Source: Naegleria gruberi (lineage: Eukaryota). From it: 64,000 bases of DNA. The DNA lies in assembly GCA_000004985.1 (NCBI GenBank), contig GG738880.1; one strand, 5' to 3'. A program made the position numbers and the translations under genes. The first letter of the stretch is position 1. Every line of letters starts with the position of its first letter. Below the pieces are notes generated by a model. That model made no database searches. It was not told the DNA's origin and worked only from the letters and a program-made list of their open reading frames with translations. This document shows positions 46,650-64,000 of the stretch, piece by piece.

Positions 46650-48690
46650 CATCATGTGAAAAACAATAAAAACATGAAAATATAAGATATCCACGATTTT
46701 CACAAATTATGCTACAAGACTCGAAATTATACATTCAACAACATAATAAACATTATGAATTGTTGTTTTATTGTTGTTTGATTTGTAATTGGGCTATGAA
46801 TCAACTCTGTAGCATGAAATATCGGAACTTGGTAAATTGACAACATGATGAAAATCTGATAATAAATACCTCTCCTACCTACTATTGACCATTCCGAACA
46901 ATAATACATTGACACTTTTCCAACTTGTCCAGTAGATCCAGCAGTGATGATGAATTTAGTGAAAATTTTGACATTTCACCAAAATTACATTGCTAAAAAT
47001 TAATTTCCACAAATACTATTATTATATTGATGGAAAACAATAATGATGATGGTTGGTGAATGATCCGATGATGGAACACCAACTTGGGATTTTCCAGCAT
47101 GAAAAATAAATTCCAATTTCATGATGATAATGAACCAATAAAAATTACTATTATTATTACTATATAGATCATGTTGAGATGATGATGTGAAAGTTTGGTG
47201 GTTTCATGATGTAAAACCACTCCGAAAATCATGATGTCCTCCTTGAGTAGAAGAATGTTGAATATTTTTTTATGAAGTTTTTGTGAGAATGGCGTAGCAG
47301 TTGTATTATTGGTGAAGTTATGGTCTATGTCTTTCAAAATTAAGTCCATCATGATGATAATCCACTAATAAAATTACTACTATTCAGATCATGTTGAGGG
47401 GTTCGATTTATCTCTTGTTTTACTGTAACAAGTATTGCGCCCAAAATTGTTAAGGTACTTCCCGTGTGCTAAACTCAAGCTCCAAAAAAATGTTTGAAAA
47501 TAAGCCACTAACAAACATGCAAGATATTAACTCTGGAAAAGATTATTTAGCGAGTAAAAGAAGGAAGGAATGATGTTATCGGAGAAGGAATTTATCAGTG
47601 ATGATATTGAAATTAATGATAACACAAAAGCTACATCTTCAAAAACACTTTTCAATATTTCATCACCTTCGTTTAGGAAGAGATTGGAACTGGGAGAGGA
47701 TGTGCCATTCTCCAATAATTTTAATAATAATGTAAATAATTCAAACAATATTGAAAAACAACAAACGGAAACAAGTTCATCATCAACTACAACAACACCG
47801 AGACCATCATTCATCAAAGCACCTTCATTACCTTCATTATCTTTTCCTATTAAGAAAAGTTCATCAGTTTCTGATGATGTTAAAGAGATTGAATCTAAAT
47901 TGAATGCTAATTGCAAGAATGGTGTGGAAAGGGCAATGTTATACATGTTGGCAAACCGATTGAATGTCAAGTTGTTGATTGGAGTTCTATTTGTGTTATC
48001 TTTTTTAAATAGCCTTAAAACATTAAGTTTTAATCAGAATATTTTGAGTATTGTCCTATTTCTTGTTCAATTATATACTAACTATCATAGGAAGAATATT
48101 GATATGGCCATGTCCTATGAGGAGACTTTTAAAAGATTGGATGGGCAGGAAATGCAGAGAATGGTTGTTTCCTTGGTTCTCTACACAACCAGAATACTAT
48201 TCCTTCCCGAACATAACATGATGTTTATTCCAGTTCTTTTCCTTTGGTTTGCTGGAGCTAACAAGTTGTACATTTACTCAACTTTTCATGGGCTATTCCC
48301 AACATTTTACACAAGCTTTCTCTACATTATGTGTGCTTGCTACCATTCGTACCATGAGTATATTTTGAATGGATACTCTGCTCGATTCATTGGAATCATT
48401 GAGCAATATACAGTTATGACTGGCTGTGTTTGGATGTTCTCCTATTATTTTATTAATGTGACTGGTTATTTGAAACACAAGGTAGATAAATTGCAAGACA
48501 CTAGAAAAAGGTTGGAATCAGCATTAGACGCTCGTAGTCGTTTCATGGCCCATATTTCACACGAGTTTAGATGTCCAATAATGTCAAGTATAGGGTGCTT
48601 GGAGTTGTTAAAAGAAACTCCATTGAATGAAAAACAAAATGATTTGGTTGACACAATTGTTTCTTCAAATAGTGTTCTTTTGCTTTGATG
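46650..48690. repeat. Segmental duplication unit A (HK promoter region + 5' CDS); paralogous to 48741..50184
   Basis: Direct alignment by eye shows 46650.. matching 48741.. at a roughly constant offset of 2091 nt. After a ~145-bp insertion unique to copy B (48958..49105) the offset becomes 2235 nt. The identity is ~98-99%, with 2-nt and 6-nt indels in the CDS. Confidence 0.8.
47490..48688 (+). CDS. Hybrid histidine kinase, copy A, 5' part (sensor/TM region + HisKA), truncated by scaffold gap
   Basis: ORF 47570..48688 has hydrophobic helices, then ..RSRFMAHISHEFRCPIMSSIGCLELLKETPLNEKQNDLVDTIVSSNSVLL. This is a HisKA H-box with the phospho-accepting His. The sequence runs into the N-gap at 48691. 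The upstream ATG at 47490 (MFENKPLTNMQD..) is put out of frame by a 2-nt indel relative to copy B. Confidence 0.6.
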
Positions 48691-48740
48691 NNNNNNNNNN
48701 NNNNNNNNNNNNNNNNNNNNNNNNNNNNNNNNNNNNNNNN
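48691..48740. other. Assembly gap (50 N) between duplication units A and B
   Basis: Run of N. Confidence 1.
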
Positions 48741-50184
48741 CATCATGTGAAAACAATAAAAACATGAAAATATAAGATATCCACGATTTTCACAAATTTT
48801 GTTACAAGACTCGAAATTATACATTCAACAACATAATAAACATTATGAATTGTTGTTTTATTGTTGTTTGATTTGTAATTGGGCTATGAATCAACTCTGG
48901 TAGCATCAAATATCGGAACTTGGTAAATTGACAACATGATGAAAATCTGATAATAAATATGATGTTTATTATCTATTTAAATAGTAGTACTAAAAGACAT
49001 GATTCAAGTTGGTGAAGTACATGTTGAGTTATGGTCCATGTACTTTTTAAAAATTCACATGTACCTATCCCTATCATAACTTGACCAAAATTGATAAGAG
49101 AAAGTTCTCCTACCTACTATTGACCATTCCGAACAATAATACATTGACACTTTTCCAACTTGTCCAGTAGATCCAGCAGTGATGATGAATTTAGTGAAAA
49201 TTTTGACATTTCACCAAAATTACATTGCTAAAAATTAATTTCCACAAATACTATTATTATATTGATGGAAAACAATAATGATGATGGTTGGTGAATGATC
49301 CGATGATGGAACACCAACTTGGGATTTTCCAGCATGAAAAATAAATTCCAATTTCATGATGATAATGAACCAATAAAAATTACTATTATTATTACTATAT
49401 AGATCATGTTGAGATGATGATGTGAAAGTTTGGTGGTTTCATGATGTAAAACCACTCCGAAAATCATGATGTCCTCCTTGAGTAGAAGAATGTTGAATAT
49501 TTTTTTATGAAGTTTTTGTGAGAATGGCGTAGCAGTTGTATTATTGGTGAAGTTATGGTCTATGTCTTTCAAAATTAAGTCCATCATGATGATAATCCAC
49601 TAATAAAATTACTACTATTCAGATCATGTTGAGGGGTTCGATTTATCTCTTGTTTTACTGTAACAAGTATTGCGCCCAAAATTGTTAAGGTACTTCCCGT
49701 GTGCTAAACTCAAGCTCCAAAAAAATGTTTGAAAATAAGCCACTAACAAACATGCAAGATATTAACTCTGGAAAAGATTATTTAGCGAGTAAGAAGGAAG
49801 GAATGATGTTATCGGAGAAGGAATTTATCAGTGATGATATTGAAATTAATGATAACACAAAAGCTACTTCTTCAAAAACACTTTTCAATATTTCATCACC
49901 TTCGTTTAGGAAGAGATTGGAACTGGGAGAGGATGTACATGTGCCATTCTCCAATAATTTTAATAATAATGTAAATAATTCAAACAATATTGAAAAACAA
50001 CAAACGGAAACAAGTTCATCATCAACTACAACAACACCGAGACCATCATTCATCAAAGCACCATCATTACCTTCATTATCTTTTCCTATTAAGAAAAGTT
50101 CATCAGTTTCTGATGATGTTAAAGAGATTGAATCCAAATTGAATGCTAATTGCAAGAATGGTGTGGAAAGGGCAATGTTATACA
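48741..50184. repeat. Segmental duplication unit B (bounded by N-gaps on both sides)
   Basis: See unit A. The identical small ORFs 47119..47352 and 49354..49587 are part of this duplication. Confidence 0.8.
49725..50184 (+). CDS. Hybrid histidine kinase, copy B, N-terminal fragment, truncated by scaffold gap
   Basis: This fragment is ~98-99% identical to 47490..47950. The ATG at 49725 follows an A7 run and is in frame through MMLSEKEF... It has a 6-nt insertion (..EDVHVPFS..) relative to copy A and ends at the N-gap at 50185. Confidence 0.55.
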
Positions 50185-50569
50185 NNNNNNNNNNNNNNNN
50201 NNNNNNNNNNNNNNNNNNNNNNNNNNNNNNNNNNNNNNNNNNNNNNNNNNNNNNNNNNNNNNNNNNNNNNNNNNNNNNNNNNNNNNNNNNNNNNNNNNNN
50301 NNNNNNNNNNNNNNNNNNNNNNNNNNNNNNNNNNNNNNNNNNNNNNNNNNNNNNNNNNNNNNNNNNNNNNNNNNNNNNNNNNNNNNNNNNNNNNNNNNNN
50401 NNNNNNNNNNNNNNNNNNNNNNNNNNNNNNNNNNNNNNNNNNNNNNNNNNNNNNNNNNNNNNNNNNNNNNNNNNNNNNNNNNNNNNNNNNNNNNNNNNNN
50501 NNNNNNNNNNNNNNNNNNNNNNNNNNNNNNNNNNNNNNNNNNNNNNNNNNNNNNNNNNNNNNNNNNNNN
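50185..50569. other. Assembly gap (385 N) inside HK copy B
   Basis: Run of N. Confidence 1.
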
Positions 50570-51492
50570 ATGGCAAGTGTCAAGACCTGTCACATTGATG
50601 AAAAAAATGAATAGAGAAGATGTTCTTCTAATGTTGCATGATAAACCGAATGAAAATGCAAATAGCTTGTTTGAACTATTGAAAATTAGAATGATGACAA
50701 GCAAAACCTCTAAAATTTCAAATCAATTTACAAAAGCAATTCGTATTGATAATTGTAAACATGTGGAAACGCTTGGAACGCCAAATAAGTATGGAAAGCC
50801 TGCACGAGGACTCAACAACAAATTCTTCTTCAATATTCCGATGGATATTACTATTTCATACAGGCACGAAACAATTTATGTTTGCGACTACAAAAATTAC
50901 AAAATTCAAACATTTGATTTGGCTACCAAACAATTTATCACTTCAATTTCGACAATTCCGACGTGCTTTATCTACATTCAAGTGGACGATCAATTTGATC
51001 AATTATTTGGATTAGGATTTGATCGTTCCTTATATGTGGGAAAATTTGAGAAACCAAGTAAGGGAAGAGGTGGATTAAGTTTTGCAAGTTTGGAACGATT
51101 GAAAATGTCAGTAATGGAAGAATGTGGTCAATTTTCAAAGATTTGTTTGGATAGAGAAATGGGGAGATTATACTTTATGGAAAATTCAAGGCAATTCAGA
51201 ATTGGAGTATTGAGAACGATGGATTTGAGTATTGTAAATTTGATGCAAGTTGATTTTGATGAACAAGATCCAAGTGATGGGGACAAAATATTGTATTTGG
51301 ATGGAAGAGGCAATTTATGTATTCTTTCGTTCCCTCTTGTTAAAAGCATTCCCTTGTCAATTGTGAATTCAAGGAAACAAGCTCACTTTGGCCAATTTGA
51401 AACATTATTGAGTTTACAGAAAAGATTTCCAATGTGTTCAAGATAGTAACTGAGAAATCATCTGGGAATATATTAATTTCTATACCAATTCC
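50570..51492. repeat. Duplicated block carrying the NHL-propeller gene (copy 1); paralogous to 62455..63382
   Basis: tggcaagtgtcaagacctgtca[c/a]attgatgaaaaaaatgaatagagaagatg.. is shared between the two copies. Identity is ~97% apart from the inverted segment. Confidence 0.8.
50607..51446 (+). CDS. NHL-repeat-like beta-propeller protein (copy 1, intact)
   Basis: 279-aa ORF with the ATG after A7. It has repeated blade-like motifs (ETIYVCDYKNYKIQTFDL, RLYFMENSRQFRIGVLRTMDL, ILYLDGRGNLCILSFPL). It lies immediately 3' of the histidine-kinase block in both duplicated copies. Confidence 0.5.
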   Translation: MNREDVLLMLHDKPNENANSLFELLKIRMMTSKTSKISNQFTKAIRIDNCKHVETLGTPNKYGKPARGLNNKFFFNIPMDITISYRHETIYVCDYKNYKIQTFDLATKQFITSISTIPTCFIYIQVDDQFDQLFGLGFDRSLYVGKFEKPSKGRGGLSFASLERLKMSVMEECGQFSKICLDREMGRLYFMENSRQFRIGVLRTMDLSIVNLMQVDFDEQDPSDGDKILYLDGRGNLCILSFPLVKSIPLSIVNSRKQAHFGQFETLLSLQKRFPMCSR

Positions 51493-51638
51493 TTTAACAT
51501 CAACTCCTATTACCATTCAAAAAGGTCATCATCAAACATGGATCTTTCATTCTGCTTCTGGAATGGAAATTAATGAAATTGAAGGTGAATTATTAATTGT
51601 AGAAAAGAAATCCTTCACTATTAAAATATTCAAATAAT

Positions 51639-54202
51639 TTACATGTAATCTACAACAGTTGTATGAGGTGGATAAACTTCCTGAACTTGATTGTTGACAG
51701 TTGAATAATATTGCTTGAACAATTCAAATCTGGTGTTCTTTCCAGAAGATTCCAATATGTGAGCAAAATACCCAATGCTCTTAATCAATTTTCTGGCAGG
51801 ATACGATTTGATGTATTCATCATTTTGAACAACAGCTGTCAAATTAGCTTCATAATCTCTGAGCATGTTAATAATTTCATCATTATTCAACCCTTCAAAG
51901 TTCTTGTCATAGAAGAAATATTTTCCAAACTCTGAGAATTTCTGATTTGCCTTTTGCTGTTCCAACTCGTACATCCATTCTTGAAATTTTGTTACAATTT
52001 TTGTAAACCTTTCAACTTACCATCACCTTCAATAGTATTTTCCTTTTCAACTTCATAAACAACCGAAACTTTTCCTTCTTGTGAATTTTCAACAACTTCC
52101 ATCAACTTGTCAACTGGTCTGGATACAAACTTTTTCAGAGTTGACTCATCCATTGTTCCCTCATCAGCCAACACATCACATCTCAAGTCGTCTGCCAAAA
52201 AAGCAAGTTTTTCAGCATTGATAGGAACTGAACCAACAACAGAAAATGTTCTAAATGAACTAGTTCCCAAATTTCCTGCATAGCACTTTCCACTACTGAC
52301 TCCAATGGCACATCTGATATGGGTTTTCGATGTTTCATTGATTGTTACTAATAATTTTCTCAATTTCAAAGCAGCTTCCAAAGCCAAAACATTTGACGAT
52401 TTTCGACCATTTCCTTCCACAGACGAAACATAAATCTGATAATCATCCACAGTAATAACTTGAAAATCACCTTGTATAGATTTAGAAACAGCACTCAACC
52501 CAGAAACAATCTTTGAAAATATGTGTCCAATATCAGCAACATTCAAATCTGTTGAAAAATCAATTAATTTGATTCTTACAACTGCTCCTTGTTTACAATT
52601 CAGACCAATTTTGAAAAGAGAATTTCCCACTTCTTGAACTTTGGATGCCATTGAGGAAGTTCTTGAACTATTGTTACTAAAATGACGACTTCCATGAGAT
52701 TCCAAATCTATTGAGGCAGCATCACTATTCGAAACTGGGTGATTCTTATGTTTCTTTGATTTGGTGTTGGCTTGGGATTCATCTGTTTTTTTGGTATTTT
52801 CTTCTTTCATATTTCTCAATTGTAAAAATACACTTTCTGGAATAAATGTCTTAATTTCGTTTAACCATACTGTCATTTCATATAAATAAAGGTAAATCAA
52901 ATCGACTTCTTTAAACTTGCTTGCAGTAATATTCACCTGATCTAGTTCCATAGTTTTGATTTTCATAAATTCTCTTTCTAAAATTGTAAATGGATTTGTG
53001 ACAATGTGTCCAATAGTGATAGACATGATTACACCAACAATGATAATCAAAATGGTAATACCAACAGATACTCCAGTTGTAATATTTGTTACCATTTCAA
53101 CTTCTTGCTTATCAACCACAATGAAAACATTCCATTCCAAGTTGACCAATGTGAAATTTGACTTTACAATGAAAAAACCATCAAAGTCAATAAAAATTGG
53201 TGTGTTAGTCCACCCCTTATAATTCTGATAAACCCTGTTCAATAAACTTCCAGAACCCTTATCAATCAAGTCAAATAACGAAACTCTAGAACTTCCATCC
53301 AAAGCAGTAGTATTGATATTTCCACCAATGACAAGATTATTGGTTTCTGCCACAATCACATAACCACTAGTGAGTACTTGTACTGTTTTCAAAAAGCTTT
53401 CAATAATTCTCAATGAAATATTCGTTTTTGTAATGCCAACTACCTTTTTAATTCCATTGCTATAATAGGTAGGATCATATAATTTGGCACAATAGTAAGT
53501 TGTATAACTTGGATTGCCAGGAATTGCATAAGGAATGCCGAATACACCATCTAATCCCAAAGAGGAATAAAAACCAAAAGTAGTTTTCCAATAACTTTGA
53601 GCATTCACTTCATAATTAGGAGATGCCTTGACCAGTGACTTGGCAGTTGTGTTAGGAGTTGAAGTATCCAATGAAATTGCATATAACATAAATTCAGTCG
53701 TTGGTGTATGATACCAAACAACAATTTCATTGGGTGGAGCTCCGTAAACATTGACACTGTCAAGACTGTCATTAAAAAATAAACCAATTCCGTATGGCTT
53801 GAAAGTGTTGTAATATTTGTAAAGATAGGCAAGCGATGGTTGACGAGGAACAAGTCCTAAATTGTAATCCTCAGCCATTGACTCAGTTGCTGAAATATAA
53901 GGTTTCAGTTGACCGTTCATATAGTTCAGTACTGAACCACTGATGGTATGCATCAATTGAGTTGATAAGGAACTCAGGGCTTCTCGAGATCCTATGAAAG
54001 AAGATAACCAAATTAAAATTGAACAGCAAACTAATAGAGAAGTGATTAGAATAATGATAAATGTTCTAACCGAAATGATTCCACCACATGTTGTTGGTTT
54101 GATTGGAGCTATTTTGGTTTTCTCCTCGGTTTCGTCTTCGTTGAGGAGAGGATTTTGTTCTTTGAGACTGTCTAGGGATGCTGTGAATGGTTGTATTTTC
54201 AT
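51639..54202 (-). CDS. Receptor-like 2-TM membrane protein with cyclase-homology-like cytoplasmic domain (paralog 2); 2 exons (52021..54202, 51639..51979)
   Basis: 736-aa ORF plus a 111-aa ORF joined by a 41-nt intron (51980..52020). The donor is GTAAGT and the acceptor is ..TTTCAAG, at phase 1. The junction ..TIEGDG-E-WMYELEQQKAN.. aligns with the contiguous ..VAQDEWLYELDNLNSN.. of paralog 1. The cytoplasmic region is ..VVRIKLIDFSTDL..ITVDDYQIYV..IRCAIGVSSGKCYAGNLGTSSFRTFSVVGSVPINAEKLAFLADDL. Both putative metal-binding Asp positions appear retained. Confidence 0.55.
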
Positions 54203-55452
54203 GATTAGTTTTGAATAGTTTTTTTAAAAATTTGAAATCATTTGAAAGGTAGTTTGATTCAATCTCGTTTGAAAATTTAGAAATCTCACCACATATGCGT
54301 TTATGGTGGAGATAACAACAATTACCTGTTTGAATATTTCCTTAACTTCTCCATTCTATTCACAACCCATCATATACTGTTAACTTTAAACGAAAATTTA
54401 CAGCGCTCATTTAGAATGATTCAACTCTGTTCCCATCACTTGATGTTAAACAACCAAATGTTTTTTCTACTTTGAAAGAGAATCTTCCTTAAAATTCGAT
54501 AGGTGACAGAAATAAAAGGGTGTAGGTGTAAAAACGTCTCTTGTATCAATAACGACCTGAGAGAACAATAGGTGACAGAAAAGAAAAAGATGTTGTTGCA
54601 TTTCAGCTATCTCCCTTGATTTTTTTTGCTATAGTAAATTCGTTTATTTAAACATAGTTGTTTGGTAAATTACTTAGTGAAGATTCATATCATTGATTAT
54701 ATTTCTTATCGTCTATTAATGATGTAAATATGATGTTTTCATTTCTTATATCTGTGGTCAGGTTCTCGGCGCATTTTTGTGATGCTTCCAAAAAACATGG
54801 AATGCTCCCAAAGCTGATTTACCTGTAGGGGTAATTGGATGCGCCAATAACACCGATTTATTACTTAAGCAAATTCACTCAACTTCAACAAAGCGTATCT
54901 CAATAACAACACTGGATGTTAGAGAAACATACCGTATGGTCATTATTAATTATGTTAACAATCATAATATCAAGTTTGTTACAGATTTGGCTCTTTACTT
55001 ATCGAGAAAAGTGATTTCAAAATTTTCATATGTGGTAGTAAGACGAGCATGTTTTCTTGGTTAATACAAATAACTGATATTCAATAAAACAGAATCTTGT
55101 AGAAAACATCAATTAGAACAAGAATAATAAATAATATTTTTATTTCACTAAGTATTAAATTTAATATTTCCTTTTTTGTAAGGAGCATTGCAAAAATACG
55201 GGAAAAACATTTCCACAGATATTGATAGATATTTAAAGGTTAAGGATAACGGTCAAATTGAGTTGAATGGAAGTGAATATTGAGATATGTATACTACTGT
55301 TGAAGAAGTATCACCTTCACTATAATTACTGACATGAGTATAACAATTGAACATATGATTCCTGTATCAATAATTCATTATTCAATGATTTTGATATGAT
55401 GGGGTTGGATTAGATATCCACTTTTGGGTTTGGATCCCATGTCAACCCCTAT

Positions 55453-58400
55453 NNNNNNNNNNNNNNNNNNNNNNNNNNNNNNNNNNNNNNNNNNNNNNNN
55501 NNNNNNNNNNNNNNNNNNNNNNNNNNNNNNNNNNNNNNNNNNNNNNNNNNNNNNNNNNNNNNNNNNNNNNNNNNNNNNNNNNNNNNNNNNNNNNNNNNNN
55601 NNNNNNNNNNNNNNNNNNNNNNNNNNNNNNNNNNNNNNNNNNNNNNNNNNNNNNNNNNNNNNNNNNNNNNNNNNNNNNNNNNNNNNNNNNNNNNNNNNNN
55701 NNNNNNNNNNNNNNNNNNNNNNNNNNNNNNNNNNNNNNNNNNNNNNNNNNNNNNNNNNNNNNNNNNNNNNNNNNNNNNNNNNNNNNNNNNNNNNNNNNNN
55801 NNNNNNNNNNNNNNNNNNNNNNNNNNNNNNNNNNNNNNNNNNNNNNNNNNNNNNNNNNNNNNNNNNNNNNNNNNNNNNNNNNNNNNNNNNNNNNNNNNNN
55901 NNNNNNNNNNNNNNNNNNNNNNNNNNNNNNNNNNNNNNNNNNNNNNNNNNNNNNNNNNNNNNNNNNNNNNNNNNNNNNNNNNNNNNNNNNNNNNNNNNNN
56001 NNNNNNNNNNNNNNNNNNNNNNNNNNNNNNNNNNNNNNNNNNNNNNNNNNNNNNNNNNNNNNNNNNNNNNNNNNNNNNNNNNNNNNNNNNNNNNNNNNNN
56101 NNNNNNNNNNNNNNNNNNNNNNNNNNNNNNNNNNNNNNNNNNNNNNNNNNNNNNNNNNNNNNNNNNNNNNNNNNNNNNNNNNNNNNNNNNNNNNNNNNNN
56201 NNNNNNNNNNNNNNNNNNNNNNNNNNNNNNNNNNNNNNNNNNNNNNNNNNNNNNNNNNNNNNNNNNNNNNNNNNNNNNNNNNNNNNNNNNNNNNNNNNNN
56301 NNNNNNNNNNNNNNNNNNNNNNNNNNNNNNNNNNNNNNNNNNNNNNNNNNNNNNNNNNNNNNNNNNNNNNNNNNNNNNNNNNNNNNNNNNNNNNNNNNNN
56401 NNNNNNNNNNNNNNNNNNNNNNNNNNNNNNNNNNNNNNNNNNNNNNNNNNNNNNNNNNNNNNNNNNNNNNNNNNNNNNNNNNNNNNNNNNNNNNNNNNNN
56501 NNNNNNNNNNNNNNNNNNNNNNNNNNNNNNNNNNNNNNNNNNNNNNNNNNNNNNNNNNNNNNNNNNNNNNNNNNNNNNNNNNNNNNNNNNNNNNNNNNNN
56601 NNNNNNNNNNNNNNNNNNNNNNNNNNNNNNNNNNNNNNNNNNNNNNNNNNNNNNNNNNNNNNNNNNNNNNNNNNNNNNNNNNNNNNNNNNNNNNNNNNNN
56701 NNNNNNNNNNNNNNNNNNNNNNNNNNNNNNNNNNNNNNNNNNNNNNNNNNNNNNNNNNNNNNNNNNNNNNNNNNNNNNNNNNNNNNNNNNNNNNNNNNNN
56801 NNNNNNNNNNNNNNNNNNNNNNNNNNNNNNNNNNNNNNNNNNNNNNNNNNNNNNNNNNNNNNNNNNNNNNNNNNNNNNNNNNNNNNNNNNNNNNNNNNNN
56901 NNNNNNNNNNNNNNNNNNNNNNNNNNNNNNNNNNNNNNNNNNNNNNNNNNNNNNNNNNNNNNNNNNNNNNNNNNNNNNNNNNNNNNNNNNNNNNNNNNNN
57001 NNNNNNNNNNNNNNNNNNNNNNNNNNNNNNNNNNNNNNNNNNNNNNNNNNNNNNNNNNNNNNNNNNNNNNNNNNNNNNNNNNNNNNNNNNNNNNNNNNNN
57101 NNNNNNNNNNNNNNNNNNNNNNNNNNNNNNNNNNNNNNNNNNNNNNNNNNNNNNNNNNNNNNNNNNNNNNNNNNNNNNNNNNNNNNNNNNNNNNNNNNNN
57201 NNNNNNNNNNNNNNNNNNNNNNNNNNNNNNNNNNNNNNNNNNNNNNNNNNNNNNNNNNNNNNNNNNNNNNNNNNNNNNNNNNNNNNNNNNNNNNNNNNNN
57301 NNNNNNNNNNNNNNNNNNNNNNNNNNNNNNNNNNNNNNNNNNNNNNNNNNNNNNNNNNNNNNNNNNNNNNNNNNNNNNNNNNNNNNNNNNNNNNNNNNNN
57401 NNNNNNNNNNNNNNNNNNNNNNNNNNNNNNNNNNNNNNNNNNNNNNNNNNNNNNNNNNNNNNNNNNNNNNNNNNNNNNNNNNNNNNNNNNNNNNNNNNNN
57501 NNNNNNNNNNNNNNNNNNNNNNNNNNNNNNNNNNNNNNNNNNNNNNNNNNNNNNNNNNNNNNNNNNNNNNNNNNNNNNNNNNNNNNNNNNNNNNNNNNNN
57601 NNNNNNNNNNNNNNNNNNNNNNNNNNNNNNNNNNNNNNNNNNNNNNNNNNNNNNNNNNNNNNNNNNNNNNNNNNNNNNNNNNNNNNNNNNNNNNNNNNNN
57701 NNNNNNNNNNNNNNNNNNNNNNNNNNNNNNNNNNNNNNNNNNNNNNNNNNNNNNNNNNNNNNNNNNNNNNNNNNNNNNNNNNNNNNNNNNNNNNNNNNNN
57801 NNNNNNNNNNNNNNNNNNNNNNNNNNNNNNNNNNNNNNNNNNNNNNNNNNNNNNNNNNNNNNNNNNNNNNNNNNNNNNNNNNNNNNNNNNNNNNNNNNNN
57901 NNNNNNNNNNNNNNNNNNNNNNNNNNNNNNNNNNNNNNNNNNNNNNNNNNNNNNNNNNNNNNNNNNNNNNNNNNNNNNNNNNNNNNNNNNNNNNNNNNNN
58001 NNNNNNNNNNNNNNNNNNNNNNNNNNNNNNNNNNNNNNNNNNNNNNNNNNNNNNNNNNNNNNNNNNNNNNNNNNNNNNNNNNNNNNNNNNNNNNNNNNNN
58101 NNNNNNNNNNNNNNNNNNNNNNNNNNNNNNNNNNNNNNNNNNNNNNNNNNNNNNNNNNNNNNNNNNNNNNNNNNNNNNNNNNNNNNNNNNNNNNNNNNNN
58201 NNNNNNNNNNNNNNNNNNNNNNNNNNNNNNNNNNNNNNNNNNNNNNNNNNNNNNNNNNNNNNNNNNNNNNNNNNNNNNNNNNNNNNNNNNNNNNNNNNNN
58301 NNNNNNNNNNNNNNNNNNNNNNNNNNNNNNNNNNNNNNNNNNNNNNNNNNNNNNNNNNNNNNNNNNNNNNNNNNNNNNNNNNNNNNNNNNNNNNNNNNNN

Positions 58401-60125
58401 NNNNNNNNNNNNNNNNNNNNNNNNNNNNNNNNNNNNNNNNNNNNNNNNNNNNNNNNNNNNNNNNNNNNNNNNNNNNNNNNNNNNNNNNNNNNNNNNNNNN
58501 NNNNNNNNNNNNNNNNNNNNNNNNNNNNNNNNNNNNNNNNNNNNNNNNNNNNNNNNNNNNNNNNNNNNNNNNNNNNNNNNNNNNNNNNNNNNNNNNNNNN
58601 NNNNNNNNNNNNNNNNNNNNNNNNNNNNNNNNNNNNNNNNNNNNNNNNNNNNNNNNNNNNNNNNNNNNNNNNNNNNNNNNNNNNNNNNNNNNNNNNNNNN
58701 NNNNNNNNNNNNNNNNNNNNNNNNNNNNNNNNNNNNNNNNNNNNNNNNNNNNNNNNNNNNNNNNNNNNNNNNNNNNNNNNNNNNNNNNNNNNNNNNNNNN
58801 NNNNNNNNNNNNNNNNNNNNNNNNNNNNNNNNNNNNNNNNNNNNNNNNNNNNNNNNNNNNNNNNNNNNNNNNNNNNNNNNNNNNNNNNNNNNNNNNNNNN
58901 NNNNNNNNNNNNNNNNNNNNNNNNNNNNNNNNNNNNNNNNNNNNNNNNNNNNNNNNNNNNNNNNNNNNNNNNNNNNNNNNNNNNNNNNNNNNNNNNNNNN
59001 NNNNNNNNNNNNNNNNNNNNNNNNNNNNNNNNNNNNNNNNNNNNNNNNNNNNNNNNNNNNNNNNNNNNNNNNNNNNNNNNNNNNNNNNNNNNNNNNNNNN
59101 NNNNNNNNNNNNNNNNNNNNNNNNNNNNNNNNNNNNNNNNNNNNNNNNNNNNNNNNNNNNNNNNNNNNNNNNNNNNNNNNNNNNNNNNNNNNNNNNNNNN
59201 NNNNNNNNNNNNNNNNNNNNNNNNNNNNNNNNNNNNNNNNNNNNNNNNNNNNNNNNNNNNNNNNNNNNNNNNNNNNNNNNNNNNNNNNNNNNNNNNNNNN
59301 NNNNNNNNNNNNNNNNNNNNNNNNNNNNNNNNNNNNNNNNNNNNNNNNNNNNNNNNNNNNNNNNNNNNNNNNNNNNNNNNNNNNNNNNNNNNNNNNNNNN
59401 NNNNNNNNNNNNNNNNNNNNNNNNNNNNNNNNNNNNNNNNNNNNNNNNNNNNNNNNNNNNNNNNNNNNNNNNNNNNNNNNNNNNNNNNNNNNNNNNNNNN
59501 NNNNNNNNNNNNNNNNNNNNNNNNNNNNNNNNNNNNNNNNNNNNNNNNNNNNNNNNNNNNNNNNNNNNNNNNNNNNNNNNNNNNNNNNNNNNNNNNNNNN
59601 NNNNNNNNNNNNNNNNNNNNNNNNNNNNNNNNNNNNNNNNNNNNNNNNNNNNNNNNNNNNNNNNNNNNNNNNNNNNNNNNNNNNNNNNNNNNNNNNNNNN
59701 NNNNNNNNNNNNNNNNNNNNNNNNNNNNNNNNNNNNNNNNNNNNNNNNNNNNNNNNNNNNNNNNNNNNNNNNNNNNNNNNNNNNNNNNNNNNNNNNNNNN
59801 NNNNNNNNNNNNNNNNNNNNNNNNNNNNNNNNNNNNNNNNNNNNNNNNNNNNNNNNNNNNNNNNNNNNNNNNNNNNNNNNNNNNNNNNNNNNNNNNNNNN
59901 NNNNNNNNNNNNNNNNNNNNNNNNNNNNNNNNNNNNNNNNNNNNNNNNNNNNNNNNNNNNNNNNNNNNNNNNNNNNNNNNNNNNNNNNNNNNNNNNNNNN
60001 NNNNNNNNNNNNNNNNNNNNNNNNNNNNNNNNNNNNNNNNNNNNNNNNNNNNNNNNNNNNNNNNNNNNNNNNNNNNNNNNNNNNNNNNNNNNNNNNNNNN
60101 NNNNNNNNNNNNNNNNNNNNNNNNN
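55453..60125. other. Assembly gap (4673 N)
   Basis: This is a run of N. The long poly-X ORFs across it are artefacts. Confidence 1.
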
Positions 60126-61057
60126 ATAAAATGAGCGAGTTGGAGCATAATCTTTGATTTTATGTCAAAGGTCTATAGTAAAATGATAGAGTTGACAACT
60201 CAATATCTACTGAACCAAAATTAATGAAATTGATATTATATGCTAATTAGAGTGTCTACATATCATGGTATTAATTTCAGTGAAAATGGAGTTGTTTCTA
60301 TATCTTTCAGATTTCCAGCCATTCTCTTGAAATATCACCATGTACTATCTACTGAATGCATTTGTTGAAATGAAATTATATAATTTGATGAAATTACACT
60401 TTATTTGAGATGTAGAACACGATATTATCATTTATTTTGAGATTGGTAACTTTTCCTATAGTGTCATCCTTAATTGTCTTAATTGACTAAAAAAGGTCAA
60501 GGAGATATTTCAAAATATAAAATAAATTATATTTTCGAGATGTACTATTGATTTCCAATCGATTGATATGTATTTTGTTGATTGACGAAGTGGTTCTCTA
60601 TTTGAAGATTTCCTCCTTGATCTTTAAAGACAACCTTGAAATTTCACCCTTTACCTTACTGAAAGATAGAATATTCTCCAAAATGTCTGAAAATTGAACC
60701 ATATACATTATTTGAGATGTTGAACATGGTGGTAAAGTTGCATAGAGTGGTCATTTTCCAGATTTTCATCCATGTCCACAGTTGACTAATTGGTATGATA
60801 GAGTTGAAATCATGAACATGAAAGTGAAAATAAACTTGATTTTCTATCTCTACTCGTAGAGTGAAGCATTTTCATGTATATATTGTTGGTTGAAGTGATG
60901 TATTTGATAGAGTTAGTGTGACTTGTCTTTCCTTAAAGTCAACCATAAAATATCAACATTTACCTTCCCATTATACCATTTCTGATTATTAAGACATGAA
61001 ATTGAATTCTATATCATTATATATCATGTACATCATTTTGGTAAAGTTTTAATAGGT

Positions 61058-61356
61058 GGTTTGGGTTTGGGTTTGGGTTTGGGTTTGGGTTTGGGTTTGG
61101 GTTTGGGTTTGGGTTTGGGTTTGGGTTTGGGTTTGGGTTTGGGTTTGGGTTTGGGTTTGGGTTTGGGTTTGGGTTTGGGTTTGGGTTTGGGTTTGGGTTT
61201 GGGTTTGGGTTTGGGTTTGGGTTTGGGTTTGGGTTTGGGTTTGGGTTTGGGTTTGGGTTTGGGTTTGGGTTTGGGTTGGGTTTGGGTTTGGGTTTGGGTT
61301 TGGGTTTGGGTTTGGGTTTGGGTTTGGGTTTGGGTTTGGGTTTGGGTTTGGGTTAA
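61058..61356. repeat. (GGGTTT)n hexanucleotide microsatellite, ~50 units, one imperfection; telomere-repeat-like
   Basis: The array is a direct read of ggtttgggtttggg... from ~61058 to the N-gap at 61357. The six-frame ORFs across it (VWVW.., GLGL/GFGF.., KPKP.., TQTQ..) are artefacts of the repeat. Confidence 0.9.
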
Positions 61357-61406
61357 NNNNNNNNNNNNNNNNNNNNNNNNNNNNNNNNNNNNNNNNNNNN
61401 NNNNNN
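61357..61406. other. Assembly gap (50 N) between the (GGGTTT)n array and the HK HATPase exon
   Basis: Run of N. Confidence 1.
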
Positions 61407-62445
61407 AAGGATGAGGATCCAAATGTAACAACCTTTAATTTGTTCGAATCGTTGAAGGCCATGACGAACATTATTTCAGGTTACGCTTCCACATTTAAGG
61501 TAAATTTGAAATTGGAAATTGATTCCAAGATTAAGGACATGTTCGTTCACTCAAATTCTTCCAAACTCCACCAAATATTATTAAATTTATTGACAAACGC
61601 TGTAAAGGCTTCAAAGCAAGGTGATTCTGTATGGTTAAAAAGTAGACTATTGGAAGATTATGGAGATTCTGTAACTGTCAGATTTATTTGTGAAGATACT
61701 GGATGCGGAATTCCACAAAATTTGATTTCTTCTATTTTTGAACCATTCGTGCAATTACAAAACAGCTCACAATCCAAAGTGCCAAGTTCTGGACTCGGAC
61801 TCACTACTGTTTCACATCTAATCAAATCGATGGATGGTCAAATTAGCGTTCTCTCTCAAGTCGGAAAAGGAAGTATTTTCACAGTTGATTTGCCATTCAA
61901 ATTAAAACCAAGCAAGTTCCAAGAAAATAGTGATCGTAATGGTAATCCAGAAGATAGGCGATCAAAACTTCACCTTAGCGTTCATAAGAGCTATTTAACA
62001 ATGATGACAGACTTGGAAAAGAATGAAAAAGAAAAGGAGAAAAAGTCAAAGTTTAATTCTAAAATATTGATTGCAGAAGATAATCCTATTAACAGAAAAG
62101 TTATTGTCAAGATGATAAATAGTTTAGGGCACGAAACAGATTATGTTTGTGATGGAAAGGAACTGGTTGAGAACTTTAATCCAAAAACTCACAAGGTTGT
62201 AATTACAGATATGGTATGTTGAAAAATCAATATTTAATGTATGCTCATCTAATTAGAATATGCCAAATATGAATGGATTGGAAGCTACTAAGGTTCTAAG
62301 AGAAAAATATGGAGATTCATTCAAGATTTATTTATTAACAGGTAATGTGACAGTCTCTTTGACAGATGTTGATGATATGGGTTTATTGGATGGCATTCTA
62401 ACAAAGCCCTGTTCTAAACAAGAGCTTGAGAAATGTATTACGTAA
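61407..62445 (+). CDS. Hybrid histidine kinase, copy C, 3' part: HATPase_c + receiver domain; exons 61407..62213 and 62257..62445 (5' end lost in gap)
   Basis: The N-box is LHQILLNLLTNAVKAS, with G1 ICEDTGCGIPQ and G2 SGLGLTTVSHLI. The receiver domain is KILIAEDNPINRKVIVKMINSLGHETDYVCDGKELVENF..KVVITDM. Donor GTATGT follows, with a 43-nt intron (62214..62256) ending AATTAG. Translation then continues NMPNMNGLEATKVLREKYGDSFKIYLLTGN..LDGILTKPCSKQELEKCIT. The conserved D and MPxMxG/KP motifs are present. Confidence 0.75.
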
Positions 62446-62454
62446 AGTGAATTT

Positions 62455-63382
62455 GGCAAGTGTCAAGACCTGTCAAATTGATGAAAAAAAATGAATAGAG
62501 AAGATGTTCTTCTAATGTTGCATGATAAACCGAATGAAAATGCAAATAGCTTGTTTGAACTATTGAAAATTAGAATGATGACAAGCAAAACCTCTAAAAT
62601 TTCAAATCAATTTACAAAAGTAATTCGTATTGATAATTGTAAACATGTGGAAACGCTTGGAACGCCAAATAAATATGGAAAGCCTGCACGAGGACTCAAC
62701 AACAAATTCTTCTTCAATATTCCGATGGATATTACTATTTCATACAGGCACGAAACAATTTATGTTTGCGACTACAAAAATTACAAAATTCAAACATTTG
62801 ATTTGGCTACCAAACAATTTATCACTTCAATTTCGACAATTCCGACGTGCTTTATCTACATTCAAGTGGATGATCAATTTGATCAATTATTTGGATTAGG
62901 ATTTGATCGTTCCTTATATGTGGGAAAATTTGAGAAACCAAGTAAGGGAAGAGGTGGATTAAGTTTTGCAAGTTTGGAAAGTATAATCTTCCCATTTCTC
63001 TATCCATACAAATCTTTGAAAATTGACCACATTCTTCCATTAGTGACATTTTCAATCGTTTATGGAAAATTCAAGGCAATTCAGAATTGGAGTATTGAGA
63101 ACGATGGATTTGAATATTGTAAATTTGATGCAAGTTGATTTTGATGAACAAGATCCAAGTGATGGGGACAAAGTATTGTATTTGGATGGAAGAGGCAATT
63201 TATGTATTCTTTCATTCCCTCTTGTTAAAAGTATACCCTTGTCAATTGTGAATTCAAGGAAACAAGCTCACTTTGGCCAATTTGAAACATTATTTGAGTT
63301 TACAGAAAAGATTTCAAATGTGTTCAAGATAGCAACTGAGCAATCGTCTGGGAATATATTAATTTCCATACCAATTCCTTTG
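62455..63382. repeat. Duplicated block carrying the NHL-propeller pseudo-copy (copy 2), ending in an N-gap
   Basis: See 50570..51492. Confidence 0.8.
62491..63382 (+). pseudogene. NHL-repeat-like beta-propeller gene, copy 2, disrupted by an ~82-bp internal inversion and truncated by a gap
   Basis: This copy is ~97% identical to 50607..51470. The segment 62980..63063 is the reverse complement of 51096..51177, which breaks the ORF into 62491..63138 and 63062..63382+. Confidence 0.5.
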
Positions 63383-63432: not shown

Positions 63433-64000
63433 TTATTGAAATACCATGATTAACTGATCCATTATAACACATTATAATTGAAAGATTTTAAAATTAATAT
63501 GATTTGACAATCTTGACATTTATAATTCCCATGATTACACTCCTGACATGTTGAATGATTTCAAATTGTCATGAAACTGATACAGTAGTGTTTATTCACC
63601 TTCACTAAGGTCCTATATCAGTTTCATGATGATCTGTATAGTGGATGTGATTGTCACATCCCTATAGGTGTCAAGTAGATCAGCCATGTAGCATGTATGA
63701 TATGGATGAATGTCAAAATGATATTAATGTATTTCATTATCATGTATAGATGTATTGGAAGTGAATTGAAGTGGTATAGATTTCTATCTTCAATGTTAGT
63801 ATAGGTGAGTTGACAAGTTGAATATTAAATATCCTGATATGATACCTAAGTATTTGAAATTGATATATATTGTTATTAACATGATTTGCAAGGTGATATA
63901 TTGATATGAAATGATTTTGAAATGTTTTCATTGATATTCTAATTGTCTAATCTATTATATGAAATTAACTTATATAAGTCATTATAATGATGTAATATTA

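What the first reader, a model, noticed from the sequence alone, without database searches (positions are those of the whole stretch)
46650..63382. Hybrid histidine kinase + NHL-propeller cassette present in 2-3 near-identical pieces scattered across five scaffold gaps
The HK parts cannot be a single contiguous gene as drawn. The 5' part is present twice (copy A 47490..48688, copy B 49725..50184). The HisKA exon abuts a gap at 48691. The 3' part (HATPase_c + REC, 61407..62445) lies 13 kb away behind a 4.7-kb gap and a (GGGTTT)n array. The NHL-type gene is present twice (50607..51446 and 62491..63382), and in both places it lies 3' of HK sequence. In copy C only ~45 nt separate the REC stop codon from the NHL ATG. 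The likeliest reading is a recent tandem duplication (>=2 copies, 98-99% identical with small indels) that the assembler collapsed or mis-scaffolded. The alternative is that some of the 'copies' are assembly chimeras. Either way the local annotation will be wrong without long reads. The 45-nt spacing between HK and NHL is also odd for independent promoters.
Basis: seen in the sequence. Interest (0 to 1): 0.6.

Follow-up and report, generated by a model that had tools for sequence, protein, structure and literature searches.

The report
Mis-scaffolded two-copy kinase locus near telomere
A single ordinary sensor-kinase gene and its small neighbour in the amoeba Naegleria gruberi appear cut up and duplicated because two near-identical versions, probably the two parental alleles, were interleaved wrongly in a draft assembly beside a chromosome end.

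Summary
In detail: gaps, coordinates, domains and repeats are as described. The window is Naegleria gruberi draft sequence.

There are exactly two copies of each duplicated piece, not three. Cassette 1 is contig ..48690 plus contig 61407-63382. Comparison with three related kinases shows only 17-19 codons (about 50 nt) missing between them. The 12.7 kb drawn between them is therefore misplaced, and the kinase is one ordinary multi-pass-membrane hybrid histidine kinase of about 750 aa.

Cassette 2 is 48741-50184 plus 50570-55452, and about 1.84 kb should lie in the gap drawn as 385 N. The (GGGTTT)n array is the published candidate N. gruberi telomere repeat, so contigs placed after it are suspect.

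The copies differ by 0.5-3%, a 144-bp indel, an 83-bp inversion and small indels. Coding changes are biased to synonymous sites.

I favour uncollapsed alleles of a heterozygous diploid (about 0.55) over a true duplication (about 0.35). Only read depth or long reads can decide.

The public gene models are wrong: one truncated, one chimeric, none for the kinase 3' half. "NHL" is only partly supported. The tight kinase-to-NHL spacing is conserved in one environmental relative. Interest is low.

The parts
46650..48690 (+). Cassette 1, left part (end of the long gap-free contig). It holds 840 nt of upstream non-coding DNA and the HK 5' coding part. The ATG at 47490 is put out of frame by an extra AA at 47556-47557. 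The next in-frame ATG is at 47570. The part encodes about six hydrophobic segments and the HisKA H-box, and ends ...SVLLL.
48686..48688 (+). TGA stop used by public model P0001, 2 nt from the contig end. Related kinases continue ...LLLLIEDILQIV here, so it is probably a contig-end error (inference).
48691..48740 (.). 50-N gap. The true neighbour of 48690 is 61407, with about 17-19 codons missing.
48741..50184 (+). Cassette 2, left part: a 1444-bp contig with the same upstream DNA and the HK 5' coding part. The ATG at 49725 has an intact frame.
48959..49105 (.). About 144 nt (125 + 19) present in copy B and absent from copy A, in the upstream non-coding DNA.
50185..50569 (.). Gap drawn as 385 N. 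If cassette 2 is collinear with cassette 1, about 1.84 kb belongs here (745 + about 50 + 1046 nt): the rest of HisKA, HATPase_c and REC.
   Evidence: arithmetic
50607..51637 (+). NHL-like gene of cassette 2. The ORF as drawn ends at 51446 because one T is missing at 51408 relative to copy C. Read in the copy-C frame it continues to the stop at 51635-51637, giving 343 aa.
51094..51176 (.). 83-bp block that is inverted in the other copy.
51992..54202 (-). 736-aa neighbour with a weak adenylate/guanylate cyclase match. It is unique sequence downstream of cassette 2.
55453..60125 (.). 4673-N gap.
60126..61057 (.). Non-coding DNA next to the telomere array, with a degenerate repeat of about 309 bp (60326-61060, 62% identity).
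61058..61354 (+). (GGGTTT)49.7. This is the candidate N. gruberi telomere repeat TTTGGG. The G-rich strand runs 5'->3' to the right and the array reaches the contig end.
61407..62445 (+). Cassette 1, HK 3' coding part: exon 61407-62213, 43-nt GT..AG intron 62214-62256, exon 62257-62445. It encodes HATPase_c (N, G1, F and G2 boxes) and REC (ED, D of ITDMNMP, T, K). No public gene model covers it.
62446..62490 (+). 45-nt spacer between the HK stop and the NHL-like ATG. Its proximal part belongs to a 37-nt block (62454-62490) that is 92% identical to an environmental relative.
62491..63382 (+). NHL-like gene of cassette 1. It is interrupted by the inverted 83-bp block at 62978-63060 plus one extra T, which shifts the frame. 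It runs into the gap.
63433..64000 (.). Non-coding contig with no similarity to anything else in the window. Its placement is unverified.

Best explanation
The locus holds one ordinary gene pair near a chromosome end of Naegleria gruberi. The first gene is a multi-pass-membrane hybrid histidine kinase of about 750 aa: sensor region, HisKA, HATPase_c and a receiver domain, with one 43-nt intron. A small, divergent NHL-repeat-like gene follows 45 nt downstream.

The draft Sanger assembly holds two versions of this roughly 5-kb stretch. They are most likely the two alleles of a heterozygous diploid that were too different to merge. They differ by a 144-bp indel, an 83-bp inversion and 0.5-3% substitutions.

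The scaffolder then had contigs that occupy the same coordinates and laid them out in one line. As a result, allele 2 and everything downstream to the telomere (48741-61356) sits inside what is really a gap of about 50 nt in the kinase gene of allele 1 (48690 | 61407).

Status of each step:
- Shown: the two-copy structure, the fit of the 5' and 3' kinase halves, the telomere repeat and the wrong gene models.
- Inferred: allelic rather than paralogous origin, and that the stop at 48686 and some 1-nt indels are sequencing errors.
- From family knowledge, not tested: the kinase autophosphorylates on the H-box histidine (HISHEFR) and passes the phosphate to the Asp in ITDMNMP of its own receiver.
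For: - Organism: P0001 is 100% identical, from an N. gruberi 416,450-bp scaffold.
- Fit of the halves: paralogue P0002 and the environmental relatives P0003 and P0007 read ...SS N(S/G)(V/I)LLLLIEDILQI(V/I)...(17-19 more residues)...FNL(F/Y)ESL. The window has ...SSNSVLLL | gap | KDEDPNVTTFNLFESL.
- Copy number: each duplicated block occurs exactly twice, and the two sets are complementary.
- Telomere: TTTGGG is the reported candidate N. gruberi telomere repeat (PMC3622300). The array of 49.7 units ends a contig with the G strand pointing outward, yet two more contigs follow it.
- Fragmentation: five gaps fall in 17 kb after 48.7 kb without any, and the extra contigs are only 1.2-2 kb. This is as expected if coverage is split between haplotypes (inference).
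- Gap sizes: the 385-N gap is incompatible with the 1.84 kb needed. The drawn distance from 48690 to 50570 (1.9 kb) is near the allelic expectation (1.1 kb) and far from the tandem expectation (at least 5.3 kb). This is arithmetic.
- Ploidy: Naegleria is described as mainly a heterozygous diploid (PMC9928731).
- Selection: differences are 12 synonymous to 7 non-synonymous in coding DNA, so both versions evolved under selection and are not error copies.
- Native gene: the intron position is shared with P0007 (read-through 'TDMVC'), which shows a native eukaryotic gene.
Against: - No read depth, mate-pair or long-read data could be reached, so allelic and paralogous origin are separated only by indirect arguments.
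- I could not retrieve a number for N. gruberi heterozygosity to compare with the 0.5-3% seen here.
- The contig after cassette 1 (63433-64000) does not match the sequence after cassette 2 (51496-55452). Under the allelic model this needs a larger gap than drawn, a misplaced contig, or a structural difference between the haplotypes.
- Each version carries a frame-disrupting lesion: AA at 47556 and the inversion in cassette 1, and a 1-nt deletion at 51408 in cassette 2. This is also what decaying duplicates would show.
Confidence: 0.55

Rival explanations
1. A real, recent tandem duplication of a unit of about 5 kb or more (upstream DNA + HK + NHL-like gene) next to the telomere. The true order would be contig ..48690, 61407-63382, junction, 48741-50184, about 1.84 kb, 50570-55452, gap, telomere. 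The scaffolder displaced the 61407-63382 contig.
For: - There are two copies at 96.6-99% identity with private indels.
- A linear order ending in the telomere can be written with all contigs except 63433-64000.
- Each copy has its own frame-disrupting lesion, as in young redundant duplicates.
- Subtelomeres are duplication-prone (general knowledge).
Against: - No junction (unit end joined to unit start) is present in any contig.
- A consistent linear solution existed, but the scaffolder did not find it.
- The drawn distances (385 N, and 1.9 kb from 48690 to 50570) contradict the tandem layout by more than 3 kb.
- The extra contigs are short and fragmentary, although each copy of a duplication should have full coverage.
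Confidence: 0.2
2. A dispersed segmental duplication. Cassette 1 continues into chromosome-internal sequence (63433 onward). Cassette 2, the cyclase-like gene and the telomere belong to another chromosome end, and were pulled into this scaffold by mate pairs that cross-matched between near-identical copies.
For: - Sequence after cassette 1 (63433-64000) is unrelated to sequence after cassette 2.
- A telomere array lies in the interior of the scaffold as drawn.
Against: - The left end of the cassette-2 contig (48741) carries no foreign flank, so nothing shows a second locus.
- The cyclase-like gene has a paralogue just upstream at 41622-44111, which fits a local gene family at one locus.
- I could not see beyond base 64000, so it is unknown whether the scaffold continues.
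Confidence: 0.15
3. A pure artefact: only one version exists, and the second set of contigs consists of error-rich or chimeric reads of the same DNA.
For: - Several differences are 1-nt indels in homopolymer runs or lie within 1-10 nt of contig ends: 48750, 50570, 50601 and 63382.
- The stop at 48686 is best explained as a contig-end error.
Against: - A clean 144-bp indel and a clean 83-bp inversion are not what Sanger base-calling errors produce.
- 19 codon differences with a 12:7 bias toward synonymous changes are also not expected from such errors.
Confidence: 0.05

Closest known systems
Naegleria gruberi transmembrane hybrid histidine kinases (the 24 HKs catalogued by Kabbara et al. 2019, PMC6324907, Excavata groups II-IV); closest paralogue P0002
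   Same: The N-terminal region has several hydrophobic helices and no known sensor domain, followed by HisKA, HATPase_c and REC. It is 58% identical (5' part) and 66% identical (3' part) to P0002. The H, N, G1, F and G2 boxes and the receiver Asp are all present.
   Different: In the public record this gene is split. There is a truncated model (P0001), a chimeric model (P0004) and an unannotated 3' half. It may therefore be missing from HK catalogues, which I did not check. About 18 codons are unsequenced.
NHL-repeat six-bladed beta-propeller proteins (Pfam PF01436)
   Same: One canonical repeat lies at aa 62-116 (FFFNIPMDITISYRHETIYVCDYKNYKIQTFD). A phmmer search of 1.84 billion representatives finds 307 hits at E<=0.001. 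The eight non-self hits checked in Pfam (P0128-P0144) all score strongly as NHL. hhalign against 12 such proteins gives 96.8% probability over aa 51-149. The length fits about six blades of roughly 45 aa after a 60-70 aa leader (my reading).
   Different: Pfam scores it 14.5 bits, below the 20-bit cut-off. The other blades are barely detectable (E 0.05-0.12). The single-sequence AlphaFold model is uninformative, with pLDDT 31. Apart from its own public gene model (P0004), the only close homologue among 5.8 billion clusters is one environmental fragment, P0127.
Uncollapsed haplotypes (haplotigs or heterozygous bubbles) flattened into one scaffold in draft assemblies of heterozygous diploids
   Same: There are exactly two versions, 0.5-3% apart with indels and an inversion. 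The extra contigs are short. The order is interleaved with inconsistent gap sizes, and gaps are dense only in this stretch.
   Different: This is not verified with read depth or phased reads. The downstream contig 63433-64000 has no allelic partner in the window.
N. gruberi candidate telomere repeat TTTGGG (Fulneckova et al. 2013, PMC3622300)
   Same: The unit is identical, the array is near-perfect at 49.7 units, it lies at a contig end, and the G strand points outward.
   Different: In the scaffold as drawn it is internal, followed by two more contigs. I read this as mis-scaffolding rather than an interstitial array (inference).

Membership tests
Hybrid histidine kinase (two-component sensor with fused receiver) | HisKA dimerisation/phospho-acceptor domain with the conserved His | tested here: met
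   Pfam HisKA E=2.1e-10, 40.9 bits against a cut-off of 26.9. Profile positions 1-48 of 66 match; the rest lies in the gap. H-box FMAHISHEFRCP is present.
Hybrid histidine kinase (two-component sensor with fused receiver) | HATPase_c catalytic domain with N, G1, F and G2 boxes | tested here: met
   Pfam HATPase_c E=2.4e-24, profile positions 3-110 of 111. The motifs LLTNAVKAS, DTGCGI, FEPF and GLGLT are found.
Hybrid histidine kinase (two-component sensor with fused receiver) | C-terminal receiver domain with the phospho-acceptor Asp | tested here: met
   Pfam Response_reg E=5.2e-19, profile positions 1-110 of 111 across the spliced junction. ED, D (ITDMNMP), T and K are present.
Hybrid histidine kinase (two-component sensor with fused receiver) | All domains in one continuous reading frame of one gene | tested here: inconclusive
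   The two halves fit paralogues with 17-19 codons missing. The joining sequence is not in the window, and the halves lie 12.7 kb apart as drawn.
Hybrid histidine kinase (two-component sensor with fused receiver) | Autophosphorylation and His-to-Asp phosphotransfer | not testable with these tools
   This needs biochemistry.
NHL repeat beta-propeller (PF01436) | Reaches the Pfam gathering score | tested here: not met
   14.5 bits against 20, E=0.036, one repeat at aa 75-103. There was no hit at E<=0.01.
NHL repeat beta-propeller (PF01436) | Significant profile similarity to bona fide NHL proteins | tested here: met
   phmmer finds 307 hits at E<=0.001; the eight non-self hits checked in Pfam score strongly as NHL. 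hhalign gives 96.8% probability, E=2.5e-10, over aa 51-149.
NHL repeat beta-propeller (PF01436) | Five to six repeats forming a closed propeller | tested here: inconclusive
   A repeat HMM finds one strong repeat and two marginal ones, at aa 178-190 and 311-342. The AlphaFold model has pLDDT 31.
Telomere | Array of the species' telomeric unit | tested here: met
   TTTGGG was reported for N. gruberi. The window has 49.7 units at 99%.
Telomere | G-rich strand 5'->3' toward a physical chromosome end | tested here: inconclusive
   The orientation is correct and the array ends its contig. The scaffold, however, continues with two more contigs, and the physical end is not testable here.
Tandem duplication | A junction joining the end of one unit to the start of the next | tested here: not met
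   No such junction occurs in any contig. All copy boundaries coincide with contig ends or gaps.
Tandem duplication | Full (1x each) read depth on both copies, or 2x where collapsed | not testable with these tools
   No reads are available.
Allelic haplotigs | Exactly two versions, collinear, differing by SNPs and indels | tested here: met
   They are collinear except for the 83-bp inversion.
Allelic haplotigs | Half depth on each version, and one cassette per long read | not testable with these tools
   Nanopore data for NEG-M exist but cannot be reached here.

The most novel reading that the evidence does not exclude
The histidine kinase and the NHL-like gene may form a conserved, functionally coupled unit in Naegleria. 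They could be co-transcribed, or the second gene could be driven or controlled by the 37-nt element just upstream of its ATG. That element is better conserved (92%) than the flanking coding DNA (76-81%) in the one relative available. This would point to operon-like or tightly coupled expression of a two-component sensor and a propeller partner in a heterolobosean. Separately, the 83-bp inversion and the 144-bp indel would be genuine structural heterozygosity at a chromosome end.
Probability: 0.12. Interest if true: 0.4.

Novelty: not a real feature. Interest (0 to 1): 0.12.

Why it matters
The value is mainly for curation.

- A complete hybrid histidine kinase of N. gruberi can be restored from one truncated model, one chimeric model and an unannotated half. 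Counts of two-component genes in this reference protist may be off by one, and one 'predicted protein' (P0004) is an artefact.
- The locus flags a scaffold join after a telomere array.
- If the two versions are alleles, the locus gives a small, well-defined example of structural heterozygosity (an indel, an inversion and frame-disrupting variants) next to a Naegleria chromosome end.

No new kind of biological system is indicated.

Tried and rejected
- Independent assemblies of the locus: exact-protein look-ups of P0002, P0004 and the 736-aa neighbour found nothing on record. I could not see beyond base 64000 or locate the window in the scaffold.
The 279-aa window ORF gave a useless AlphaFold model, pLDDT 31, so no fold search was run.
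- Wider conservation of the HK-to-NHL pairing: three more distant HK relatives (L001, L003, L004) have no NHL-like gene downstream. A scan of JGI metagenomes for the conserved spacer motif gave one contig (L005) with no HK or NHL homologue, which is a chance match.
- The Cell 2010 genome paper is not held, so I have no heterozygosity figure.
- The environmental contig L002 loses similarity after codon 95 of the NHL-like gene. From memory its tail looked like a copia-type element, but Pfam finds nothing. This is left open.
- There are no tRNA genes and no Rfam families in the window.
- 'Three copies' is rejected: pieces A, B and C reduce to two complementary cassettes.
- Bacterial contamination as the source of the HK is rejected. 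The gene has a spliceosomal intron at a position shared with relatives, and it has Naegleria paralogues.


Full report
**What the window is.** The 372-aa ORF at 47570-48688 is 100% identical to a 'predicted protein' of Naegleria gruberi on a 416,450-bp scaffold. G+C is about 35%. The sequence has five N runs, all between 48.7 and 63.4 kb, after 48.7 kb with none. This is a draft eukaryotic scaffold, and the finding concerns how its contigs were ordered.

Self-BLASTN and base-level alignment give two duplicated blocks.

- Block 1 is 46650-47945 = 48741-50184.
  - It has 6 substitutions in 1293 aligned bases and six indel events.
  - The indels include about 144 extra bases in the second copy (125 + 19 nt, 48959-49105).
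  - An extra AA at 47556 puts the first ATG (47490) of copy A out of frame. Translation then has to start at 47570.
  - An in-frame 6-nt indel lies at 47700.
- Block 2 is 50570-51495 = 62453-63382.
  - It has 5 substitutions in the first 526 bases.
  - An 83-bp block follows (51094-51176) that is present in reverse orientation in the other copy (62978-63060), with three substitutions and one extra T.
  - Then come 10 substitutions in 322 bases and a 1-nt indel (51408/63293).

Pfam confirms three domains:

- HisKA, cut by the gap, in the 5' ORF.
- HATPase_c in 61407-62445.
- Response_reg in 61407-62445. This match is continuous only after a 43-nt GT..AG intron (62214-62256) is removed.

The stop of the receiver domain (62443-62445) and the next ATG (62491) are 45 nt apart.

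**There are two cassettes, not three.**

- The HK 5' part and its upstream DNA occur twice (A, B).
- The NHL-like gene occurs twice (after B, and in C).
- The HK middle (47946-48690) and the HK 3' half (61407-62452) occur once each.

The pieces are complementary. Contig ..48690 plus contig 61407-63382 make one cassette. Contig 48741-50184 plus contig 50570-55452 make the other.

**The key test: do the two halves of cassette 1 fit?** The N. gruberi paralogue P0002 and the environmental relatives P0003 and P0007 all read ...SSN(S/G)(V/I)LLLLIEDILQI..., then a short variable linker, then ...FNL(F/Y)ESL. The window has ...SSNSVLLL at 48685 and KDEDPNVTTFNLFESL from 61407. Counting residues gives 17-19 missing codons, about 50 nt.

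So base 48690 and base 61407 are neighbours across a small sequencing gap. The 12.7 kb drawn between them is misplaced. That stretch holds cassette 2, a cyclase-like gene, a 4.7-kb gap and a telomere-bearing contig.

The TGA at 48686-48688 ends the public model P0001. It sits 2 nt from the contig end, at the point where all relatives continue. I infer a contig-end error.

For cassette 2, collinearity requires about 1.84 kb in the gap drawn as 385 N.

**The telomere.** The array at 61058-61354 is 49.7 units of GGGTTT at 99% and is unique in the window. TTTGGG is the candidate telomeric repeat reported for N. gruberi from genome data (PMC3622300). The G-rich strand runs 5'->3' to the right and the array reaches the end of its contig, as at a right-hand chromosome end. 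It is preceded by non-coding DNA with a degenerate repeat of about 309 bp. Two more contigs are drawn after it. One of them is the 3' half of the kinase, which belongs 12.7 kb to the left. This independently shows that the scaffold order is unreliable here.

**The genes themselves.** The reconstructed kinase is about 750 aa (398 + about 18 + 331).

- It has about six hydrophobic segments between residues 160 and 320, by crude hydropathy.
- It carries the H-box HISHEFR and the N, G1, F and G2 boxes.
- Its receiver domain has the ED pair, the Asp of ITDMNMP, and the T and K residues.

This is the architecture described for most of the 24 catalogued N. gruberi HKs (PMC6324907). From family knowledge, it would autophosphorylate on the histidine and pass the phosphate to its own receiver Asp. 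That was not tested. The intron position is shared with P0007, whose unspliced prediction reads through as 'TDMVC'.

The downstream ORF is only loosely 'NHL'.

- Pfam gives 14.5 bits, below the 20-bit cut-off.
- A word-indexed search of 5.8 billion clusters found only its own gene model.
- A full phmmer scan of 1.84 billion representatives found 307 hits at E<=0.001. The eight non-self hits I checked in Pfam all score strongly as NHL-repeat proteins. The listed best stretches mostly match its residues about 65-118.
- hhalign against twelve such proteins gives 96.8% probability over residues 51-149.
- A repeat HMM detects two further marginal repeats. One (311-342) lies in the part of the ORF that is open only when the 1-nt indel at 51408 is read as in copy C.

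Differences between the two copies are 9 synonymous to 7 non-synonymous in this gene, including 3:2 after that indel. They are 3:0 in the HK 5' part. So this is a real gene under purifying selection. Its true length is probably 343 aa, ending at 51637. Each copy, as recorded, carries a different frame-disrupting lesion.

**Alleles or duplication?** No tool here gives read depth, mate pairs or an independent assembly, so this step is inference. I favour uncollapsed alleles for six reasons.

- (i) There are exactly two versions, and they are collinear apart from the small inversion.
- (ii) No contig contains a duplication junction. Every copy boundary is a contig end.
- (iii) The extra contigs are 1.2-2 kb fragments. 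Gaps are dense only here, as expected if coverage is split between two haplotypes.
- (iv) A tandem array would have offered the scaffolder a consistent linear order (..48690, 61407-63382, 48741-50184, 50570-..).
  - The drawn layout is inconsistent in just that way. A gap of about 50 nt was expanded to 12.7 kb, and a 1.84-kb gap was drawn as 385 N.
  - The drawn distance from 48690 to 50570 is 1.9 kb. The allelic model expects 1.1 kb and the tandem model at least 5.3 kb.
- (v) Naegleria is described as mainly a heterozygous diploid (PMC9928731).
- (vi) The synonymous bias fits old allelic lineages, although functional paralogues would show it too.

Three points count against the allelic reading.

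- The contig after cassette 1 (63433-64000) matches nothing after cassette 2.
- Both versions carry lesions.
- I have no heterozygosity figure for this strain, because the genome paper was not held.

I put alleles at about 0.55, tandem duplication at 0.2, a dispersed subtelomeric duplicate at 0.15 and pure error at 0.05. Pure error is hard to reconcile with a clean 144-bp indel, a clean 83-bp inversion and the 12:7 codon pattern.

- P0001 is the truncated 5' half.
- P0004 (402 aa) joins residues 1-152 from 49725-50180 (HK N-terminus) to the NHL-like ORF across the 385-N gap.
- The best N. gruberi match to the HATPase_c + REC half is the 66%-identical paralogue. That half therefore has no gene model.

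**The 45-nt spacer.** A 623-bp environmental contig (L002) encodes the last 22 residues of an orthologous receiver domain (91% identical). A 51-nt spacer follows, then an NHL-like ORF 72% identical over 89 residues. The tight head-to-tail arrangement is therefore conserved in at least one relative.

The 37 nt before the ATG are 34/37 identical, against 81% and 76% for the flanking coding DNA. This hints at a constrained promoter, 5' leader or processing element, from a single comparison. More distant HK relatives lack the NHL-like neighbour, and a metagenome scan for the motif gave only a chance hit.

Elsewhere in the window, long ORFs on the same strand lie 84-126 nt apart. A convergent ORF ends 1 nt from the corrected NHL-like stop. 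Short spacers are therefore normal in this genome.

**Verdict.** What looks like a scattered, multi-copy kinase cassette is one ordinary hybrid histidine kinase gene and one divergent NHL-like gene at a chromosome end. They are recorded in two near-identical versions that a draft scaffolder interleaved. The scattered arrangement is not a biological feature. Interest is low (0.12). The only mildly novel lead is the conserved tight linkage and spacer element between the two genes.

Noticed in passing
window 62978-63060 versus 51094-51176: A clean 83-bp inversion (3 substitutions, plus one extra T at its right edge) lies inside the NHL-like ORF of one copy and shifts the frame. No obvious inverted repeats flank it. 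It is probably a real structural variant rather than an assembly error.
   Followed up: partly
window 62454-62490 and 50570-50606; L002 92-127: The 37 nt just upstream of the NHL-like ATG (TGGCAAGTGTCAAGACCTGTCAAATTGATGAAAAAAA) are 92% identical to an environmental Naegleria-like contig. The flanking coding DNA is 76-81% identical. In copy B and in L002 the block begins with an ATG that opens a short upstream ORF out of frame with the main ATG; copy C has TTG there.
   Followed up: partly
L002 413-623: In the environmental contig, similarity to the NHL-like gene stops abruptly after codon 95. The remaining sequence is unrelated. From memory it resembled a copia-type element, but Pfam finds nothing. 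It could be an insertion or a chimeric metagenome contig.
   Followed up: partly
window 51992-54202 (-) and 41622-44111 (+): Two paralogous large ORFs lie in opposite orientation, 58-61% identical at the DNA level. The downstream one has a weak adenylate/guanylate cyclase catalytic-domain match (E=0.0015, below the Pfam cut-off).
   Followed up: no
window 60326-61060: A degenerate direct repeat of about 309 bp (62% identity) lies in the non-coding DNA immediately inside the telomere array. It may be a subtelomeric repeat.
   Followed up: no
window 51639-51974 (-): A 111-aa ORF on the opposite strand ends 1 nt from the frame-corrected stop of the NHL-like gene (51637). It may be a separate small gene or the last exon of the cyclase-like gene. 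It has only sub-threshold Pfam hits.
   Followed up: partly
window 47714-47757 and 49953-49996: A short 21-nt tandem repeat (2.1 copies) encodes the Asn-rich low-complexity stretch (NNFNNNVNNSNN) in the HK N-terminal region. It is present in both copies.
   Followed up: no
whole window: ARAGORN finds no tRNA genes and no Rfam family reaches its gathering score in the 64 kb.
   Followed up: yes
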